A stretch of DNA of 64,000 bases from Escherichia coli (GTDB lineage Bacteria; Pseudomonadota; Gammaproteobacteria; Enterobacterales; Enterobacteriaceae). The first letter of the stretch is position 1. Each line of letters starts with the position of its first letter. Made by a program: the position numbers and the translations under genes. Below the pieces are notes generated by a model, which did not search any database, was not told where the DNA came from, and saw only the letters and a program-made list of their open reading frames with translations. The DNA is taken from assembly GCF_024223415.1 (NCBI RefSeq), contig NZ_CP100500.1, one strand, 5' to 3'. Below are positions 15,782-50,210 of this stretch, in pieces.

Positions 15782-15915
15782 CAATATTTTCCTCCCGCGC
15801 TAAAGATCACATAATCTTAACAAGAATGTTAAAAAATGCTGGACTCAGACAGTAGAGTGTGTGTTATGGTTGACTATAAAGTCAGCGAAGGAAATGCTTC
15901 TGGCTTTTAACAGAT

Positions 15916-16018
15916 AAAAAGAGACCGAACACGATTCCTGTATTCGGTCCAGGGAAATGGCTCTTGGGAGAGAGCCGTGCGCTAAAAGTTGGCATTAATG
16001 CAGGCTTAGTTGCCTTGC
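15916..16018 (-). ncRNA. sdsR: sRNA SdsR (RyeB)
   Basis: Minus-strand sequence GCAAGGCAACUAAGCCUGCAUUAAUGCC...CCGAAUACAGGAAUCGUGUUCGGUCUCUUUUU matches my recollection of SdsR, ending in a hairpin plus U-tract. Confidence 0.8.
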
Positions 16019-16105
16019 CCTTTAAGAATAGATGACGACGCCAGGTTTTCCAGTTTGCGTGCAAAATGGTCAATAAAAAGCGCGGTGGTCATCAGCTTAA
16101 ATGTT

Positions 16106-43636: not shown

Positions 43637-44203
43637 ATGCTTGAACTTAATGCTAAAACCACTGCGCTGGTGGTGATCGATTTACAAGAAGGCATCTTAC
43701 CTTTTGCCGGTGGTCCACATACTGCCGATGAGGTAGTTAATCGCGCCGGGAAGCTGGCGGCGAAATTTCGCGCCAGCGGTCAGCCCGTGTTTCTGGTGCG
43801 AGTTGGCTGGTCTGCCGATTACGCCGAAGCATTAAAACAGCCGGTTGATGCCCCCTCCCCCGCTAAAGTGTTGCCCGAAAACTGGTGGCAACATCCAGCT
43901 GTATTAGGTGCAACTGACAGTGATATCGAAATCATCAAACGTCAGTGGGGTGCGTTTTACGGTACGGATCTGGAGTTGCAATTACGCCGCCGAGGTATCG
44001 ATACAATAGTGTTATGTGGGATCTCGACCAATATCGGTGTTGAATCCACCGCCCGCAATGCCTGGGAACTTGGCTTTAATCTGGTGATTGCCGAAGACGC
44101 CTGTAGTGCCGCCAGCGCCGAGCAACACAATAACAGCATTAATCATATCTACCCGCGCATCGCCCGTGTGCGTAGCGTGGAAGAGATCCTTCACGCGTTA
44201 TGA
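43637..44203 (+). CDS. yecD: isochorismatase-family hydrolase YecD
   Basis: 188-aa product from [17 protein letters not shown]; the ORF track begins at an upstream GTG. Confidence 0.88.
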
Positions 44204-44310
44204 TTTACATCGGTCTACCGCAATGGTCGCATCCTAAATGGGTGCGGTTGGGGATCACCAGCCTTGAAGAGTATGCCCGCCACTTTAACTGCGTGATACG
44301 GGATTTTTAA
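44200..44310 (+). pseudogene. yecE: yecE 5' fragment, disrupted by prophage insertion
   Basis: Reads [32 protein letters not shown], then diverges from K-12 yecE and stops after 5 more codons; AT-rich phage-like DNA follows. Confidence 0.8.
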
Positions 44311-44411
44311 AAATCACTAAAGAACGCCCAAGAGCATGAGTTTTCTTTAGCATAATCAAAGCGTTGAATTTCCATGCCATATGAAAATCGGCAAAGTTCA
44401 TATGTAACAAA

Positions 44412-44471
44412 GTGTCCCAATCATGCCCCAAATTGCCCCACAACAGACATTTTTGCCCCATGCATGCCCCA
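44412..44471. repeat. phased direct repeats of TG(C/T)CCCA near the prophage-host junction
   Basis: Five copies (TGTCCCA, TGCCCCA x4) starting at 44413, 44424, 44434, 44454, 44465, spaced at ~10-bp multiples. Confidence 0.6.
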
Positions 44472-44492
44472 AAAAATCACTTTCCCTCACCC

Positions 44493-44542
44493 TTGACACT
44501 GTTTATCCATACAGTTAAAAATAATACTGTATACAAACACAG
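44493..44542 (+). promoter_or_regulatory. putative SOS-regulated promoter of phage dinI: -35 TTGACA with two LexA-box-like palindromes
   Basis: TTGACA at 44493-44498; CTGTTTATCCATACAG at 44499-44514; CTGTATACAAACACAG at 44527-44542; both fit CTGT-N8-ACAG. Confidence 0.6.
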
Positions 44543-44557
44543 TGTAGAGGGATTTTT

Positions 44558-44806
44558 ATGCGTATTGAAATCTGTATCGCTAAAGAAAAATTCAGCAAAA
44601 TGCCAAAAGGCTCTGTACCTGCTCTACAACAGGAAATGTCTCGCCGTATCAGAAAACAATACGACGATGTGGAGGTTATAGTAAAATCCGCCAGTAATGA
44701 CGGACTGACCATTTTAAGAGCCGTAGATAAAGAAAACGCTCAGAAGTTCATACAGGAAACGCTGCAGGAAGTCTGGGAAACTGCTGATGACTGGTTTTTT
44801 CACTAA
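44558..44806 (+). CDS. DinI-family DNA-damage-inducible protein (prophage-encoded)
   Basis: 82-aa [22 protein letters not shown]...[16 protein letters not shown], resembling DinI incl. C-terminal acidic WExADDWF motif; good SD (AGAGGG). Confidence 0.8.
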
Positions 44807-44873
44807 TCAGGACGTCAAATAAATAACAACTGTAATTATTCTCTCCAAATTAACAATCTCTGTATACATACTC

Positions 44874-44910
44874 AGGCGTGTTCACGCATACAACACGCCT
44901 TTCTGATATT
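44874..44910 (+). terminator. intrinsic terminator downstream of dinI-like gene
   Basis: AGGCGTGTT-cacgcatac-AACACGCCT followed by TTCTGATATTT. Confidence 0.55.
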
Positions 44911-44982
44911 TAATTGTTTACAGAAATATTGCCGAATAAAAATATAAACCATAGTCTTAAAAAAATAATAATTCCACTATAG

Positions 44983-45078
44983 CTATCCCAGAACAACCAG
45001 TACAAATAATAAAAGACATATCACAGCAACACTCCACACTGACAGCGCAAAAATAAATGCCGCCTTTGTTATCTTCAT
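44983..45078 (-). CDS. hypothetical 31-aa hydrophobic peptide (speculative)
   Basis: Manual translation: MKITKAAFIFALSVWSVAVICLLLFVLVVLG; single predicted TM helix; weak SD; lies in an AT-rich spacer. Confidence 0.2.
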   Translation of the reverse strand: MKITKAAFIFALSVWSVAVICLLLFVLVVLG

Positions 45079-45189
45079 ATACAAGCAACCTGTCCTGATA
45101 ATCACCAACTCATGTTTTATTCTTAACCATTCGTCACAAATACAACAAAAAATAACAGCAGCAGCACCGATATCACAATATAAGATACA

Positions 45190-45645
45190 TTATTCAACAC
45201 CTGAATCCCCCGCAGCTTCTCTCCCCTTTATAAAACGCCCCTTCCGGAATCCAGACCGCTGCAGTGCACGACGAAGATGACCGTATACCGTCTTGTCATT
45301 CTGCCCCGTCTCTTCTGTAATCTCCGCAATACTTAAACCTCTGTAATACCGGTTCAGTACCGCTCTGCGCTCTTCCAGCGTCAACACACCTCCGGCCGCT
45401 CTCAGATTCAGCATCGACTTATTCAGAATACAGCAGGCCTCTCCGGTAAAAAGAATACGAACAATATCTGTATACTCATCATCACAGAATACAAAATAAT
45501 ATCTGAATGACCTGCCTGACTGCACCCTTCTTCTGTCTGATATGGCATCTTCTATATATCTGATTCGACTGCTTACGGTTCCAAATATCTCTCGCAGGGC
45601 TTTTTCAAAATAAATATCTCTCGTCGCCAGGATTATATCCAGCAT
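45190..45645 (-). CDS. LuxR/GerE-type HTH transcriptional regulator (prophage accessory)
   Basis: 151-aa ORF; C-terminal LTLEERRAVLNRYYRGLSIAEITEETGQNDKTVYGHLRRALQR fits the GerE/LuxR HTH pattern; Arg codons almost all AGA/AGG/CGA and frequent ATA Ile. Confidence 0.6.
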   Translation of the reverse strand: MLDIILATRDIYFEKALREIFGTVSSRIRYIEDAISDRRRVQSGRSFRYYFVFCDDEYTDIVRILFTGEACCILNKSMLNLRAAGGVLTLEERRAVLNRYYRGLSIAEITEETGQNDKTVYGHLRRALQRSGFRKGRFIKGREAAGDSGVE

Positions 45646-45661
45646 CTCTGTACCTCATTAT

Positions 45662-45682
45662 ATCCCGGGGGACTCCCCCGGG
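45662..45682. other. GC-rich hairpin between eib-like gene and regulator
   Basis: TCCCGGGGG-ACT-CCCCCGGGA, 9-bp perfect stem, no U-tract. Confidence 0.5.
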
Positions 45683-45705
45683 ACAGATATCTAAATCCTG
45701 ACCTG

Positions 45706-46833
45706 TCAGAACTCAAAATTCACACCAGCATTCCACGATGCGGATGACCCACCTGCAGCAACTGCAACTTTTCCTGCCACATTCTCTGTGAAACGGTAGC
45801 CCACGCCCACCGCAATGGCCTGCTCATCACGGTAACCACCAACGGCTGCTGTCGCGTTAAATTTTCCAACACTGTATGGCTGGAAAAGACCGGCCAGTGC
45901 CGCGCTCTGGGCTGCACTCTCCCTTAACTCCTTCCGGTTCTCTTTAATCTGCTCCTGCATATTATTCATTCTCTCTGTCGCCATCTTCTGCCAGGCTTCC
46001 GTCAAATCCAGACGATGACTGTTATTCCTTATCGCTGCTGTATTTGAGGCTATTGCTGCATCCGTCTGCGCCCTGTTCTTCACAAGCACATCGCTGAGAT
46101 GTTCTGCCTGGCTTTTCACCTCGTTACGGACAGTACGCACACTGCTGTCTGTATATGTACGCGTCTCGTCCAGAACATCCGACTTCACCGCATCCGTGTA
46201 TTCCTGCGCAGAAGCCCTGGCAGCTGTAATATTACCGTTAAGTCTGTTTTCTGCCGATTCCACTCGACTCTTAGCATCAGCAACAGCATCACGGTAGACA
46301 GCTCCTATCTCACCGCGCAGGGCATCCCCCGACTCCCGTACAGCATCTGCAATGGCGTTGTCCATCTGTCCTTTTGTGGCCGCATCACTATCCTTAACAC
46401 CATCTGAAACATTTATAATCCGGCGGGTTTCCGGTGCACCATCAACTGAAAATCCATATCCTGAAGGACCGGCCCCTACAGAAAGTACATTGCTTTCTCC
46501 ATTCACCTGAGAGCCATACCCCAGAGCGACACTGTTGTCTGCATTAAAAACAGCTGTATTATTTCCCACAGCCATGGATTTATCCGCATCCCAAATTATT
46601 GCATCGGAACCAACAGCAAAGTTTTTTCCAGTAACACTACCATCACTGTTAAAATTTCCATTTCTGTCAACCACAGTTGCACTTTCAAGTGAATGAGTGC
46701 CATTATCAATCCAGATAATACCCGTCGATGACTCAGTAAGTGTTTTATGAGCCAAAGCCTGAGATGAGAGCAGCAGGGCCACACTCACTGCCAGCGCGCT
46801 TTTCTTTAAAAAAGCATCACGTCTTTTAAGCAT
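45706..46833 (-). CDS. trimeric autotransporter adhesin, Eib-like (E. coli immunoglobulin-binding protein family) candidate
   Basis: 375-aa product from MLKRRDAFLKKSALAVSVALLLSSQALA (signal peptide; SD AGGAG 9 nt upstream); coiled-coil stalk; C-terminal YadA-like anchor ...WNAGVNFEF; Eib genes are known prophage cargo; the ORF track extends 18 codons upstream. Confidence 0.7.
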   Translation of the reverse strand: MLKRRDAFLKKSALAVSVALLLSSQALAHKTLTESSTGIIWIDNGTHSLESATVVDRNGNFNSDGSVTGKNFAVGSDAIIWDADKSMAVGNNTAVFNADNSVALGYGSQVNGESNVLSVGAGPSGYGFSVDGAPETRRIINVSDGVKDSDAATKGQMDNAIADAVRESGDALRGEIGAVYRDAVADAKSRVESAENRLNGNITAARASAQEYTDAVKSDVLDETRTYTDSSVRTVRNEVKSQAEHLSDVLVKNRAQTDAAIASNTAAIRNNSHRLDLTEAWQKMATERMNNMQEQIKENRKELRESAAQSAALAGLFQPYSVGKFNATAAVGGYRDEQAIAVGVGYRFTENVAGKVAVAAGGSSASWNAGVNFEF

Positions 46834-47181
46834 TCTGTTATTCTCCTGTATTATTACTTCACCAGCCAGAACGGTAGTGCGGAGCAAAAATACAGTGATA
46901 AGAATCCTCTTTTATTAATTTAATAATATCAGGAATATTATTGTGTATAATATGCGCCCTCAATTTAAGCAGCAGAAAAGCAATGACGCGAAAATCATTA
47001 AAATACATAAAGATAAAACATCATAACTATAATTATAATAAGCGCGCTTATTTTAGCATCTGAACATTTAAAGTACTGCTATCACAAAACAATAAAAATC
47101 CTGGGTAATATCTCTGATGATTGAATGAGAAATTCACGATGTCTGGTGAGAATTCTGTTCAAAACGAGGAATGCAGACGTA

Positions 47182-47268
47182 CACGTGGCACGCACCACGT
47201 GATCCGTAGAAAAGCCTCTTGTTACGAATTTCGTAAACCGCACGTCTGTCTGGTCGTGCGGATTTTTT
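47182..47268 (+). other. three consecutive hairpins ending in an intrinsic terminator (candidate structured RNA 3' end)
   Basis: CACGTGG-cacgca-CCACGTG (47182-47201); perfect 15-bp palindrome TTACGAATTTCGTAA (47222-47236); CCGCACG-tctgtctggt-CGTGCGG + ATTTTTT (47238-47268). Confidence 0.45.
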
Positions 47269-47454
47269 ATCCGTCAACTTCACATGAAACCCGCCAGAGC
47301 ACTGTTTCCGGATTCAGACATCAGGCATATTATCATCCACAATATCGTGAACAAGATCACCTTTTTGCAATTCCTTTATTGATCGAAAGCAGTTAATCAC
47401 TGAAATTAATTACCGGAGTGAAAGCATTACTGCATAATAAATATAGATCCTTGC

Positions 47455-47488
47455 CCCCCTCTGACAGAATTTTCAGAGGGGTTTTTTT
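47455..47488 (+). terminator. strong plus-strand intrinsic terminator
   Basis: CCCCCTCTGA-cagaattt-TCAGAGGGGG followed by T7; plus-strand only. Confidence 0.65.
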
Positions 47489-47496
47489 TATCAGTT

Positions 47497-48072
47497 TCAC
47501 CATCCAACCCTGTACGCCAGAATGGTTTCACTGTCACTCAGTTCTGCTATTGCCTTTTTCATCTCCCTTTGCCTTATATGTATTTCAAGGCCTTTCCTGA
47601 ACATCGCTTTACCAGCAGCATCACTCAGGGATATCAGTTCATCTGCCGTCATCGGTACATCATTATTCTCTGCGTCCGTCCAGAAAAATCCTTCCGGCAA
47701 CACTCCGCCTCTGGCCGCTGATGCCGACATTCCAAGACGTGTCATGGCTTCCTTTCCATAATCCCATTTCCGTCCTCTGTGCTCAAAAACATACCCTGAC
47801 GCCTCCATCGCATCACGCCAGGCATTTATCTCCGCGTTTTTCATCCTGCGTGCTTCTTCCACAGCCATATCATCATTTGCCCGGTACTCACCTACCGGCC
47901 CTGCATCACCTCTTATGCAGGCTTCAAATATTTCACGACCGTAAGACTCAGGATCATCCGCACTTGCTGTAAATACACATTCTGTTTCCGCGTCTGAAAA
48001 CTTCACTATACAGTTTATGGTCGTATGACCCCTGTCAGCCCACACTGGTGACGTGATTTTATCGACCTTCAT
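47497..48072 (-). CDS. hypothetical phage protein at the tail-fibre-assembly (tfa) position
   Basis: 191-aa ORF immediately downstream of the stf-like gene with SD GGGGAGAAA; does not resemble lambda Tfa as far as I can recall; assignment is positional. Confidence 0.4.
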   Translation of the reverse strand: MKVDKITSPVWADRGHTTINCIVKFSDAETECVFTASADDPESYGREIFEACIRGDAGPVGEYRANDDMAVEEARRMKNAEINAWRDAMEASGYVFEHRGRKWDYGKEAMTRLGMSASAARGGVLPEGFFWTDAENNDVPMTADELISLSDAAGKAMFRKGLEIHIRQREMKKAIAELSDSETILAYRVGW

Positions 48073-48086
48073 TCATTTCTCCCCTG

Positions 48087-49892
48087 TCACCGTATTCTCT
48101 GAAACAGGCCCCAAATCGTCCCAATGATATTATTCACTGTCATGTTAGTTGTGCATAACATCCATGTACCAAGCATAGGATTGCCAAATAAAAAGCGGAT
48201 ATCTGTAAGTTTATCCGATGACGACGACACAATAACGGCCTGTCTGATACGATACCCGGGTATTTCACGGGTATTTGTTACCTCATGATTTCGTTCTATG
48301 ATCCCCAGAACATAAGACCCCACGGAATAAACACTTCCGACGCTCGCTGGCTGCCCCGGCTGTCCCTGTGGTCCTGCCGGGCCGCGTTCACCTGTATACC
48401 CTCTTGGCCCCTGAGGACCTGCCGGGCCGCGTTCACCTGTATCCCCCTTTAGTCCCTGTGGACCTGCCGGACCGCGTTCACCTGTATCGCCCTTTGGTCC
48501 CTGTGGACCACGCTCCCCCTGGGCTCCCAGCTCTTTCCATTCAGACCAGGGGCCATTACCGGTAAAATTACCAGTAACAGTTCTTACGAACTTTCGTGGT
48601 GGGTTCCAGGTTGTATATTCATGCTGGCAATATCCCCATGCACCAACTCTTACCTGAAGATAACCCGCTCTCTGAATCGGATAATTATTTTCTCGTGTAG
48701 CCCCACTGTCTGATGGCTGATAATAATCACCCTGATCGGTCACTCGTCCCAGTCGGTTCAGATCACCATTCAGCAGTTGTCCACGGGCTGACTCTCCTCT
48801 TGGTCCCTGAGGACCTGCCGGACCGCGTGCTCCTGTTTCACCTTTTGCTCCCTGTGGACCTGTCGGACCGCGTTCACCTGTTTCACCTTTTGGTCCCTGT
48901 GGTCCTGCCGGGCCGCGTTCACCTGTTTCACCCTTTGCTCCCTGTGGACCTTCCGGGCCACGTTCACCTGTATCCCCCTTTGGTCCCTGAGGACCTGCCG
49001 GGCCACGTTCACCTGTATCGCCCTTTGATCCCTGTGGACCTGCCGGGCCGCGTTCACCTGTATCCCCCTTTGGTCCCTGTGGACCTCCCGGATCTCCTTT
49101 ATCCCCCTTAGGGCCTTTTTCTCCTCGCTCACCCTTTTCTCCCTTCAGACCCTGAGGGCCTTCCGGACCACGTGCACCTGTTTCGCCCTTTGCTCCCTGT
49201 GGACCTGCCGGGCCGCGTTCACCTGTTTCGCCCTTTGCTCCCTGTGGACCTGCCGGGCCGCGTGCACCTGTTTCACCCTTTGGTCCCTGTGGACCTGCCG
49301 GGCCGCGTTCACCTGTATCGCCCTTTAGTCCCTGTGGACCTGCCGGACCGCGTTCACCTGTTTCACCTTTTGGTCCCTGTGGTCCTGCCGGGCCACGTGC
49401 TCCTGTTTCACCTTTTGGCCCCTGTGGCCCGGTAATGCCTCTTTCACCACGAGCGCCGGTATCCCCTTTCTCTCCTCGTGGTCCCCGGGCAGATGCTGCT
49501 CGTTTCCGGGCTTCCTCCGCCTCAGATGCCGCGGACTCTGCTCTGTGCAGTATGGACTGCACCACAGCCTCCAGCTCTGACAACGCCTTCGGATAATAAG
49601 GAGCATCTTCCAGCTCCATCAGAAATTTATTCAGTGTTCCCGGTGAAGAATCCTCCCTGACCACGATATCTCCCACATACGAAGGACGGTAACCTTCTGT
49701 ATTGAGTGTCACCCTGTATATTCCTGGCTCCACATCCATACTGTAACTCCCCGTCTCTTCCGGCATGCCATAAGCCACTGTCGTGGCGATGACTGTCTCG
49801 CTGGTTCTCTTCGCTTTCAGCTCAATAATGCATCCCGGTACCGGTTTTCCGGTTCCGTCCCTCAGCACGCCTGAAATTTTTACAGCCGCCAT
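48087..49892 (-). CDS. stf: side tail fibre protein (Stf-like) with collagen-like G-X-Y repeats
   Basis: 601-aa ORF; N-terminus [18 protein letters not shown]... resembles lambda Stf N-domain; two long blocks of GPxGxKGxTGxRG repeats; distinct C-terminal domain. Confidence 0.8.
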
Positions 49893-49964
49893 ACTCGCTC
49901 CATAAAAAATAATCCCGCAAAATTGCGGGCGTCGTCATTCATTTACAATCGGGTGTTTTTATGA

Positions 49965-50210
49965 TTACTTCACGCACGAAACTTTCGTAAACATATCTTC
50001 ACTCACCCACTGACCATAAAATCTCGGAGCTGATACTTTATACACAGTGCCGCTTTTCGTTTCTATTTTCCCTGTAAGATCTACCGTATAAGCTCGCTGT
50101 AAAACCCCGGGACTCAGCACACCGGTGCACCGGACTCTCTCCGTAACGGAACGGTACCCCGCGCAACCTGATACAAGAAACAGCAAAAAAGTGCAGACGA
50201 TTATTTTCAT
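49965..50210 (-). CDS. small lipoprotein, Cor-like candidate
   Basis: 81-aa ORF with signal peptide and lipobox LVSGC; sits at the lom/cor position; no homology recalled. Confidence 0.5.
   Translation of the reverse strand: MKIIVCTFLLFLVSGCAGYRSVTERVRCTGVLSPGVLQRAYTVDLTGKIETKSGTVYKVSAPRFYGQWVSEDMFTKVSCVK

What the first reader, a model, noticed from the sequence alone, without database searches (positions are those of the whole stretch)
46890..47496. 600-bp structured non-coding region upstream of the adhesin gene with plus-strand terminators: candidate sRNA locus
No credible protein gene lies between eib and the tfa-like gene. On the plus strand there are three consecutive hairpins (47182-47268), the last a clean intrinsic terminator (CCGCACG-N10-CGTGCGG + U6), and a second very strong terminator at 47455-47488 (10-bp G/C stem + U7). 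Both work only for rightward transcripts, while every flanking gene is leftward. This implies one or two small plus-strand RNAs, or a regulatory leader, antisense/divergent to the eib promoter region. The middle hairpin is also a perfect 15-bp DNA palindrome TTACGAATTTCGTAA, which could be a dimeric regulator binding site. The 91-aa plus-strand ORF at 47121-47396 spans the first terminator and is probably not real.
Basis: seen in the sequence. Interest (0 to 1): 0.5.

Follow-up and report, generated by a model that had tools for sequence, protein, structure and literature searches.

The report
Terminator-rich spacer upstream of eib adhesin gene
The hairpins and rightward-facing terminators are real, but they look more like a transcription barrier between a prophage's tail-fibre operon and its adhesin gene than proven small-RNA genes, and this copy lacks the only good promoter for the three-hairpin RNA.

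Summary
Three hairpins lie at 47182-47268, the last a plus-strand terminator (T1). A strong plus-strand terminator (T2, 47456-47489) sits 7 nt from the tfa stop. No protein gene is credible.

The sRNA reading is only partly supported.
- There is no Rfam match, and the ~500 E. coli copies are too alike for covariation.
- The window carries a minority allele with an 84-bp deletion at 47181/47182. In 32 of 37 aligned copies that segment holds the only promoter-like site placed to start a three-hairpin RNA. It also holds a T-tract that makes hairpin 1 a leftward terminator.
- Five unrelated hairpins occupy the T2 position in six related phage spacers. One is an eib-less phage where int and dinI converge on tfa. 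T2 is therefore a feature of the tail-operon end, not an eib-linked sRNA marker.
- The candidate RNAs show no excess complementarity to the eib or HTH 5' regions.

Best reading: the upstream boundary of the eib moron, made of promoter DNA plus a terminator block (about 0.45). True sRNAs remain possible (about 0.25). Modest interest; transcript mapping would decide.

The parts
45706..46833 (-). eib, an immunoglobulin-binding trimeric autotransporter adhesin (375 aa from the ATG at 46833)
   Evidence: Pfam YadA_anchor, E = 2e-16. Sources name cluster members 'immunoglobulin-binding protein'.
46834..46979 (-). eib 5' UTR and likely eib promoter (TTGAGG-N17-TAATAT at 46963-46935, predicted start near 46928). 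A promoter-like site also overlaps on the plus strand (ATAATA-N17-TATAAT, 46923-46951).
   Evidence: Home-made sigma-70 weight-matrix scan: 10.7 and 10.5 bits, against about 0.45 sites/kb/strand at 10 bits or more. Few variable sites among the copies that keep eib; the IS1-disrupted L041 is unrelated left of about 46964. Promoters are predicted only.
46980..47078 (.). AT-rich patch (23-31% G+C) that exists as two haplotypes differing at about 40 of 99 positions, flanked by near-identical DNA
   Evidence: Composition; alignments and column counts. Contains the minus-strand promoter-like site TTCAGA-N18-TATTAT at 47064-47035.
47079..47181 (.). Left part of the conserved core. Ends at the 84-bp deletion junction (47181/47182) between CAYGTGGCA repeats.
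   Evidence: Alignments. 3 variable columns in 103 nt. 32 of 37 aligned copies carry the extra 84 bp.
47182..47201 (.). Hairpin H1 (7-bp stem, 6-nt loop). In the majority allele it is a minus-strand intrinsic terminator (9-bp stem then AATTTTTG). Here its T-tract is deleted.
   Evidence: terminator call on L002 minus strand at 5447-5426.
47222..47236 (.). Hairpin H2, the palindrome TTACGAA-T-TTCGTAA
   Evidence: Unique in the window. Weak as RNA at -3.6 kcal/mol.
47238..47268 (+). T1, a plus-strand intrinsic terminator (CCGCACG-N10-CGTGCGG, then A and T6)
   Evidence: -11.2 kcal/mol on plus, -7.6 on minus with a poor U-tract. Invariant in 36 of 37 copies.
47269..47430 (.). Conserved interval between T1 and T2. 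Holds promoter-like sites on both strands (plus 47305-47333, minus 47354-47327) and a 32-aa ORF (47284-47382) with no Shine-Dalgarno sequence.
   Evidence: 9 variable columns in 162 nt. Fold z = -1.6, unremarkable.
47431..47455 (.). Variable linker with three allele types and indels of up to 26 nt
   Evidence: Alignments; column counts.
47456..47489 (+). T2, a strong plus-strand intrinsic terminator (9-bp stem, 8-nt loop, T8). The T-tract ends 7 nt before the tfa stop codon.
   Evidence: The stem is kept at 8-9 bp in all three allele types. Unrelated hairpins occupy the same position in five other spacers.
47497..48072 (-). tfa-like tail-fibre assembly gene (DUF4376, orf-191 type), last gene of the late tail operon
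   Evidence: Pfam DUF4376, E = 1.5e-20. Annotation in homologous genomes.

Best explanation
The 660-bp spacer is the upstream boundary of the eib moron, a gene cassette inserted after the tail-fibre genes of a lambdoid prophage.

Its left third (46834-47078) is AT-rich control DNA holding the eib promoter. Its right two thirds form a transcription barrier. T1 and T2 face the eib side. They stop rightward, antisense transcription before it enters the tail-fibre operon. That transcription could come from divergent firing of the AT-rich eib control region, or from the SOS-regulated dinI unit 2.4 kb to the left.

In the ancestral, majority allele H1 is also a leftward terminator, so H1-H2-T1 blocks both directions between tfa and eib. 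The window's copy lost H1's T-tract through an 84-bp deletion between 9-bp repeats. In this copy I found no canonical leftward terminator (hairpin followed by a T-tract) between tfa and eib.

Short plus-strand RNAs ending at T1 and T2 are probably made, but as by-products of termination.

Shown: the structures, their orientation, the allele difference and the positional conservation. Inferred: that transcription actually arrives at these terminators and that they work in vivo.
For: 1. In six related tfa-to-next-gene spacers an antisense-facing intrinsic terminator lies roughly 5-15 nt from the tfa stop. Five of the hairpins are mutually non-homologous: ours, P-EibA/PhiR5_1, P-EibC, 1720a-02/phiSTEC1589 and GER2 (homology matrix). 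The shuffles give about 0.5-0.9 terminator-like sites per 650-700 nt on both strands. One in a given 30-nt window and orientation therefore has a chance of roughly 0.02 per lineage (my inference).
2. Phage 1720a-02 has no eib. There int and dinI run towards tfa and the terminator sits between them. The feature therefore belongs to the operon end.
3. A second antisense-facing terminator about 105-250 nt further in, like T1, also occurs in P-EibA/PhiR5_1 and phiSTEC1589.
4. In the majority allele H1 scores as a minus-strand terminator 36 nt from plus-strand T1.
5. No plus-strand terminator of comparable strength lies between dinI (44558-44806, with a CTGT-N8-ACAG LexA box at 44527-44542) and T1.
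6. The hairpin block has no shared polymorphism in 87 nt, while the adjacent core has 16-19 variable columns in 349 nt.
7. T2 keeps an 8-9-bp stem in three allele types despite variable flanks.
Against: No transcript data were available, so arrival of rightward transcription at T1 and T2 is an inference. Rho would probably stop untranslated dinI read-through long before T1. Lambda itself shows no such terminator by the same scan, so the feature is not universal. All copies are 97.5-99% identical in the core, so conservation may only reflect recent spread. A barrier function does not explain H2 or the about 160 conserved nucleotides between T1 and T2. It is also compatible with real sRNAs, not exclusive of them.
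Confidence: 0.45

Rival explanations
1. One or two real plus-strand sRNA genes.

- RNA-1 would be H1-H2-T1, about 87-90 nt. In the majority allele it would be driven by TTTACA-N17-TACAAA, which ends 6 nt before H1. In the window that promoter is deleted, so RNA-1 is either silent or made only as a longer RNA from upstream starts near 46958 or 47040.
- RNA-2 would run about 150 nt from a promoter-like site at 47305-47333 to T2.

They would act in trans on host or phage mRNAs.
For: Both terminators are canonical with long U-tails (U6, U8), as in Hfq-type sRNAs. Weight-matrix scores are 9.3 bits for the long-allele promoter and 9.8 bits for 47305-47333. All three substitutions in the long-allele promoter fall in its spacer, not its hexamers. 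The plus-strand fold has z = -2.7. The hairpin block is the least variable segment. There is no coding potential.
Against: No Rfam family matches. The consensus scan finds no plus-strand promoter within 46890-47496, and TACAAA lacks the key final T. Sites of 9 bits or more occur at about 1.2/kb/strand by chance. No complementarity to the eib or HTH 5' regions exceeds shuffles. The only copy with changes in the block has two uncompensated, stem-breaking substitutions (47198 C>A, 47244 G>A). T2 is explained by position alone. The element was not found in any other species representative. The sequences are not quoted in the searchable literature.
Confidence: 0.25
2. A relic with no present function. 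T1, T2 and the core would be left over from an ancestral rightward unit, such as a dinI-side 3' region, that was split when the eib-HTH cassette was inserted. They would persist only because the element is young.
For: The core is 97.5-99% identical in all 512 places, so there has been little time for decay. The eib-less 1720a-02 shows the presumed ancestral layout. The 84-bp deletion and the stem-breaking changes in L015 are tolerated.
Against: Five unrelated hairpins at the same position argue for maintenance, not inheritance. T2 stems are kept across three alleles with different flanks. There is no sequence homology between our spacer and the 1720a-02 spacer.
Confidence: 0.15
3. A cis-regulatory region of eib. 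Either it is a long leftward leader starting far upstream, for example at the minus-strand site 47354-47327, whose hairpins attenuate transcription. Or it is protein-binding DNA, with H2 as the operator of a dimeric regulator such as the sigma-70-region-4-like HTH protein encoded downstream of eib.
For: The region always travels with eib: 370 genomes carry the core and 370 carry T2 plus the tfa 3' end. Long-allele H1 is a leftward terminator and could attenuate. H2 is a 7+1+7 palindrome. An HTH gene sits in the cassette.
Against: The best eib promoter prediction lies within about 130 bp of the ATG. An eibG construct with only 168 bp upstream complemented the mutant (bioRxiv 10.64898/2025.12.25.695649), although homology of that region to ours was not checked. 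There is no second copy of the palindrome. The P-EibA and P-EibC spacers are unrelated in sequence although the cassette is similar.
Confidence: 0.1
4. A small protein gene. Candidates are the 25-aa ORF (53 aa in the long allele) that ends inside H1, the 32-aa ORF at 47284-47382, and the 91-aa ORF.
For: The 84-bp deletion is a multiple of three and keeps the 25/53-aa frame. The 32-aa ORF is intact in both alleles.
Against: No Shine-Dalgarno sequence precedes either start. The 91-aa ORF is stopped in the long allele. Substitutions are roughly 3 synonymous to 4 non-synonymous (53-aa ORF) and 2 to 3 (32-aa ORF), by my reading. There are no family hits in any frame. Database 'homologues' are only the same E. 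coli locus, some frameshifted. PGAP never annotates these ORFs.
Confidence: 0.05

Closest known systems
Moron boundaries in lambdoid prophages (promoter-gene-terminator cassettes after the tail genes), such as the P-EibA/C/D/E prophages of ECOR-9
   Same: Same place in the phage map: J, lom, tail fibre, tfa, spacer, eib, small HTH gene, dinI. The spacer is a comparable 360-680 bp and non-coding. The depositors already marked stem-loops in it.
   Different: The sequence is unrelated to the P-EibA and P-EibC spacers. Here the strong terminators face against the cassette, whereas the textbook moron has its terminator after the gene in the sense direction (my knowledge).
Convergent or bidirectional intrinsic terminators between converging transcription units
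   Same: Hairpins with an A-tract on one side and a T-tract on the other, placed between opposed units. The long-allele H1/T1 pair and the int-dinI/tfa terminator of phage 1720a-02 fit this.
   Different: In the window the nearest rightward gene (dinI) is 2.4 kb away with eib and HTH in between. T2 has no U-tract on the tfa-sense side, so it is one-directional.
sRNAs lying between tandem terminators (rrA/rrB/rrF of the E. coli rrn operons, PMC8144298) and prophage sRNAs such as StxS (PMC7547250) and PasA-D (bioRxiv 10.64898/2026.05.13.724894)
   Same: Tandem terminators about 220 nt apart could release an inter-terminator RNA by read-through of T1. The location is a prophage and the 3' ends are U-rich.
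   Different: There is no expression or binding evidence here. Pas sRNAs map near Q, lysis or structural genes, and that paper does not mention tail fibre or eib. There is no sequence or Rfam relation.

Membership tests
Intrinsic (Rho-independent) terminator: T1 and T2, plus strand | G+C-rich stem of at least 5 bp, short loop, followed at once by a U-tract | tested here: met
   T2: 9 bp, 6 G-C pairs, 8-nt loop, U8, -16.7 kcal/mol. T1: 7 bp (all but one G-C), 10-nt loop partly paired, A+U6, -11.2 kcal/mol.
Intrinsic (Rho-independent) terminator: T1 and T2, plus strand | RNA 3' ends map to the U-tract in vivo | not testable with these tools
   Needs Term-seq or 3' RACE.
Any described RNA family (Rfam 15) | Covariance-model match at or near the gathering score | tested here: not met
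   No hit with E <= 1 in window 44000-50000. Only sub-threshold chance hits in the long allele. The whole window yields only RyeA, SdsR and the cspA element elsewhere.
Trans-acting sRNA gene | Own promoter placed to give a discrete short transcript | tested here: inconclusive
   The consensus scan finds no plus-strand site within 46890-47496. Weight-matrix candidates of 9.3-10.5 bits occur at chance-level density. The best-placed one is deleted in the window.
Trans-acting sRNA gene | Structure supported by compensatory changes in homologues | tested here: inconclusive
   36 of 37 copies are invariant in the stems. The one variant (L015) has two uncompensated stem changes. No homologue was found outside E. 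coli.
Trans-acting sRNA gene | Complementarity to a target | tested here: not met
   Tested only against the eib and HTH 5' regions, where it was no better than shuffles. Genome-wide targets were not tested.
Type I toxin-antitoxin locus | Small hydrophobic toxin ORF overlapped by an antisense RNA | tested here: not met
   No conserved hydrophobic ORF. The 26-aa minus-strand ORF has non-conservative variants and its only SD-like motif abuts the start codon.
Protein-coding gene (91-aa ORF 47121-47396) | ORF kept intact in homologues and related to a protein family | tested here: not met
   Stopped in the 84-bp-containing majority allele. No Pfam or PHROGs hit in any frame.
Operator of a dimeric regulator (H2 palindrome) | Repeated or promoter-overlapping palindromic site with a cognate protein | tested here: inconclusive
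   Perfect 7+1+7 palindrome, but a single copy with no related site in 64 kb. It is about 260-300 bp from the predicted eib promoter. Binding is not testable here.

The most novel reading that the evidence does not exclude
The spacer encodes a previously undescribed pair of prophage or island sRNAs, carried by about 7% of complete E. coli genomes and linked to the eib serum-resistance/adhesin cassette. One would be a 3-hairpin RNA of about 90 nt and the other an RNA of about 150 nt ending at T2. The 84-bp indel would act as a natural on/off switch for the first RNA and, at the same time, for read-through from the tail operon into eib.
Probability: 0.2. Interest if true: 0.55.

Novelty: new member of a known kind. 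Interest (0 to 1): 0.3.

Why it matters
eib genes give E. coli immunoglobulin binding, serum resistance and chain-like adherence, yet their control region is unannotated and essentially unstudied.

The work shows that the spacer is a conserved, non-coding, terminator-rich module. It also shows that phages of this group always place an antisense-facing terminator at the end of the tail-fibre operon, using unrelated sequences. This gives a concrete, testable picture of how such cassettes are insulated from phage late genes. It also warns against reading every 'orphan' terminator as an sRNA.

The two natural alleles, with and without the 84 bp, are a ready-made experiment.

Tried and rejected
- Rfam at permissive thresholds on both alleles: nothing. 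tRNA/tmRNA scan: none.
- Homology searches. INPHARED phages gave no match to the spacer. Plasmids gave one identical copy. IMG/VR gave one copy. GTDB species representatives gave none by 22-mer and none by the HTH protein.
- Using the spurious 91-aa ORF as bait for diverged copies returned only E. coli copies. The '63% identity' hit was a frameshifted, low-quality assembly.
- Distant homology between our spacer and the P-EibA, P-EibC, PhiR5, 1720a, STEC1589 and GER2 spacers: none above shuffles. Cross-family covariation was therefore impossible and I built no covariance model.
- Pseudogene remnant: six-frame Pfam and PHROGs searches were empty.
- Type I toxin-antitoxin, retron and invertase crossover-site ideas: rejected by inspection for lack of the defining parts (no hydrophobic ORF, no RT or invertase gene nearby, no hix-like sequence); not formally searched.
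- Full-length RNAduplex gave meaningless long duplexes. The windowed version showed no signal.
- Literature: no promoter or transcript mapping for eib was found. The hairpin sequences are not quoted anywhere searchable. Pas sRNAs are unrelated in location.
- 'Short allele = prophage, long allele = island' failed: L041 is a short allele with the island-type right flank.

Full report
**Setting**

The window holds E. coli chromosome (RyeA/SdsR at 15.9 kb, a yecD-like and truncated yecE-like ORF near 44 kb by my reading of the translations) and then the end of a lambdoid prophage. Reading rightward, the prophage end contains:
- dinI (44558-44806, plus strand);
- a 151-aa protein with a sigma-70 region-4-like HTH (45190-45645, minus strand);
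- eib (45706-46833, minus strand; YadA anchor, named immunoglobulin-binding protein by sources);
- the spacer in question;
- a DUF4376 tfa-like gene (47497-48072, minus strand);
- a collagen-repeat tail fibre gene.

Yes. H1 (47182-47201), the H2 palindrome (47222-47236) and T1 (47238-47261 plus A+T6 to 47268) are exactly as described.
- The 87-nt plus strand folds into these three hairpins at -29 kcal/mol, z = -2.7. The minus strand gives z = -1.9.
- T2 has a 9-bp stem with 6 G-C pairs, an 8-nt loop and T8 (47456-47489). This is slightly different from the '10-bp, U7' reported. It is called as a terminator on the plus strand only.
- On the tfa-sense strand T2 is preceded by A8 and followed by no U-tract.
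- Terminator-like sites are enriched locally: 7 found against 2.4 +/- 1.5 in shuffles.

**Coding potential**

I found none.
- PGAP places no gene wholly within the spacer in any of the seven genomes inspected; in two prophage copies only the tfa-like gene's 3' end reaches into the matched stretch.
- The 91-aa ORF is stopped in the majority allele.
- Six-frame translations hit nothing in Pfam or PHROGs.
- A protein search with the ORF returns only the same E. coli locus.

**Distribution and variation**

The spacer occurs in 370-371 of 5,426 complete E. coli genomes, at about 510 places, always on chromosomes. The core 47085-47435 is 97.5-99% identical everywhere.
- It sits in intact prophages (tfa, spacer, eib, HTH, dinI, int) or in a decayed island that keeps only about 80 bp of the tfa 3' end.
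- It is absent from the INPHARED phages. It is present once each in PLSDB and IMG/VR and in 27 metagenome contigs. It is absent from GTDB species representatives.
- In an alignment of 37 copies, the hairpin block (87 nt) has no shared polymorphism. The adjacent core has 16-19 variable columns in 349 nt. The AT-rich patch 46980-47078 exists as two haplotypes differing at about 40 of 99 sites.
- The single variant copy (L015) has two uncompensated, stem-breaking changes.
- Covariation therefore cannot be assessed. The invariance is suggestive at best, because polymorphisms are linked in a few haplotypes.

**The window carries a deletion allele**

32 of 37 aligned copies have 84 extra bases between 47181 and 47182, flanked by CAYGTGGCA repeats. 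The window and four others lack them. A deletion between direct repeats is the simple explanation (inference).

The missing DNA matters in two ways.
- Its right end (…CTACAAAAATTT) supplies the T-tract that makes H1 a minus-strand intrinsic terminator: 9-bp stem, 4-nt loop, AATTTTTG, -13.4 kcal/mol.
- It contains TTTACA-N17-TACAAA, ending 6 nt before H1. This is the only promoter-like site placed to produce a discrete H1-H2-T1 RNA. It scores 9.3 bits in my weight-matrix scan and fails the tool's stricter rule because the -10 element lacks the final T.

In most copies the block is therefore a face-to-face terminator pair. In the window only the rightward terminator survives, and the putative RNA-1 promoter is gone.

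**T2 belongs to the tail-operon end, not to eib**

The spacers of P-EibA/PhiR5_1, P-EibC, GER2, phiSTEC1589 and 1720a-02 follow tfa genes only about 70-78% identical to ours over partial alignments. They are unrelated to our spacer in sequence.

Every one has an intrinsic terminator facing against tfa, roughly 5-15 nt from its stop codon. These comprise five mutually non-homologous hairpins. From the shuffle rates, the chance per lineage is about 0.02 (inference).

Phage 1720a-02 has no eib. There int and dinI run towards tfa and the terminator sits between them. phiSTEC1589 and P-EibA/PhiR5_1 also have a second antisense-facing terminator about 105-250 nt further in, like T1. Lambda lacks such a site by the same scan.

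This pattern points to a selected function: stopping transcription that would run antisense into the late tail genes. In the window no comparable plus-strand terminator lies between the LexA-box-preceded dinI and T1.

**Tests of the sRNA idea**

- Rfam gives nothing.
- Plus-strand promoter-like sites exist: 46923-46951 at 10.5 bits and 47305-47333 at 9.8 bits. Their density is what chance gives, about 1.2/kb/strand at 9 bits or more. The consensus scan reports none on the plus strand within the region.
- The candidate RNAs show no complementarity to the eib or HTH 5' regions beyond shuffles.
- The palindrome has no second copy in the window.
- No paper maps transcripts here. One preprint expressed eibG from 168 bp of upstream DNA. 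Pas sRNAs and StxS lie elsewhere in prophages.

**Conclusion**

The structures are real and oriented as claimed. The most economical reading is a moron boundary: AT-rich eib promoter DNA plus a terminator block that insulates the tail operon and eib from each other. The block is bidirectional in the ancestral allele and rightward-only here. I give this 0.45.

Other readings and my confidence in each:
- Real sRNAs remain possible (0.25). If RNA-1 exists, the window's copy probably cannot express it from its own promoter.
- A relic without present function: 0.15.
- An eib cis-regulatory role: 0.10.
- A small protein: 0.05.

Transcript-end mapping in strains with the two alleles would settle it.

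Noticed in passing
window 47181/47182; L002 5343-5426: The window has an 84-bp (in-frame) deletion relative to 32 of 37 aligned copies, between CAYGTGGCA repeats. It removes a leftward terminator's T-tract and a promoter-like site. This could allow tail-operon read-through into eib in this allele.
   Followed up: partly
window 46980-47078: The AT-rich patch upstream of the eib promoter exists as two haplotypes differing at about 40 of 99 sites, inside otherwise near-identical DNA. It looks like a recombination patch and covers a minus-strand promoter-like site (47064-47035).
   Followed up: partly
window 44527-44542 and 44860-44875: A perfect LexA-box pattern (CTGT-N8-ACAG) lies just upstream of the prophage dinI gene, after a TTGACA-N18-AAAAAT promoter-like site. 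A one-mismatch copy lies downstream of dinI. No intrinsic terminator was detected after dinI.
   Followed up: partly
L005 and L007 (NZ_CM176497.1, NZ_CP019250.1), locus 1-2994: In many island copies eib is cut to a 188-aa stub next to a sul2 / aph(3'')-Ib / aph(6)-Id / ISCR2 resistance block, so resistance genes appear to have landed in the adhesin gene. In L041 an IS1 end (recognised from memory) abuts the spacer at the equivalent of about 46990.
   Followed up: no
L018 1680-1870 and L017 2300-2488: Phages 1720a-02 and phiSTEC1589-Stx1c share a conserved non-coding segment of about 190 nt ending in the antisense terminator at the tfa stop, whatever lies beyond it. This could be a comparable candidate RNA or insulator module in another lineage.
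   Followed up: partly
window 48087-49892: The tail-fibre gene upstream of tfa is full of collagen-like G-X-Y repeats ([19 protein letters not shown]…), as described for prophage collagen-like proteins of pathogenic E. coli (title and abstract of PMC3368898, listed).
   Followed up: no
window 15912-16056 and 1-421: Rfam finds the overlapping RyeA/SdsR sRNA pair and a cspA-type thermoregulator 5' UTR. These are ordinary chromosomal features that place the window near the yebY-yecE region.
   Followed up: no
window 44200-44500: A yecE-like ORF is cut short after about 36 codons, next to the prophage end. This is consistent, from my memory, with yecE being a known integration site for lambdoid and Stx phages. 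A 20-nt direct repeat (44413-44432 and 44454-44473) lies at the junction.
   Followed up: no
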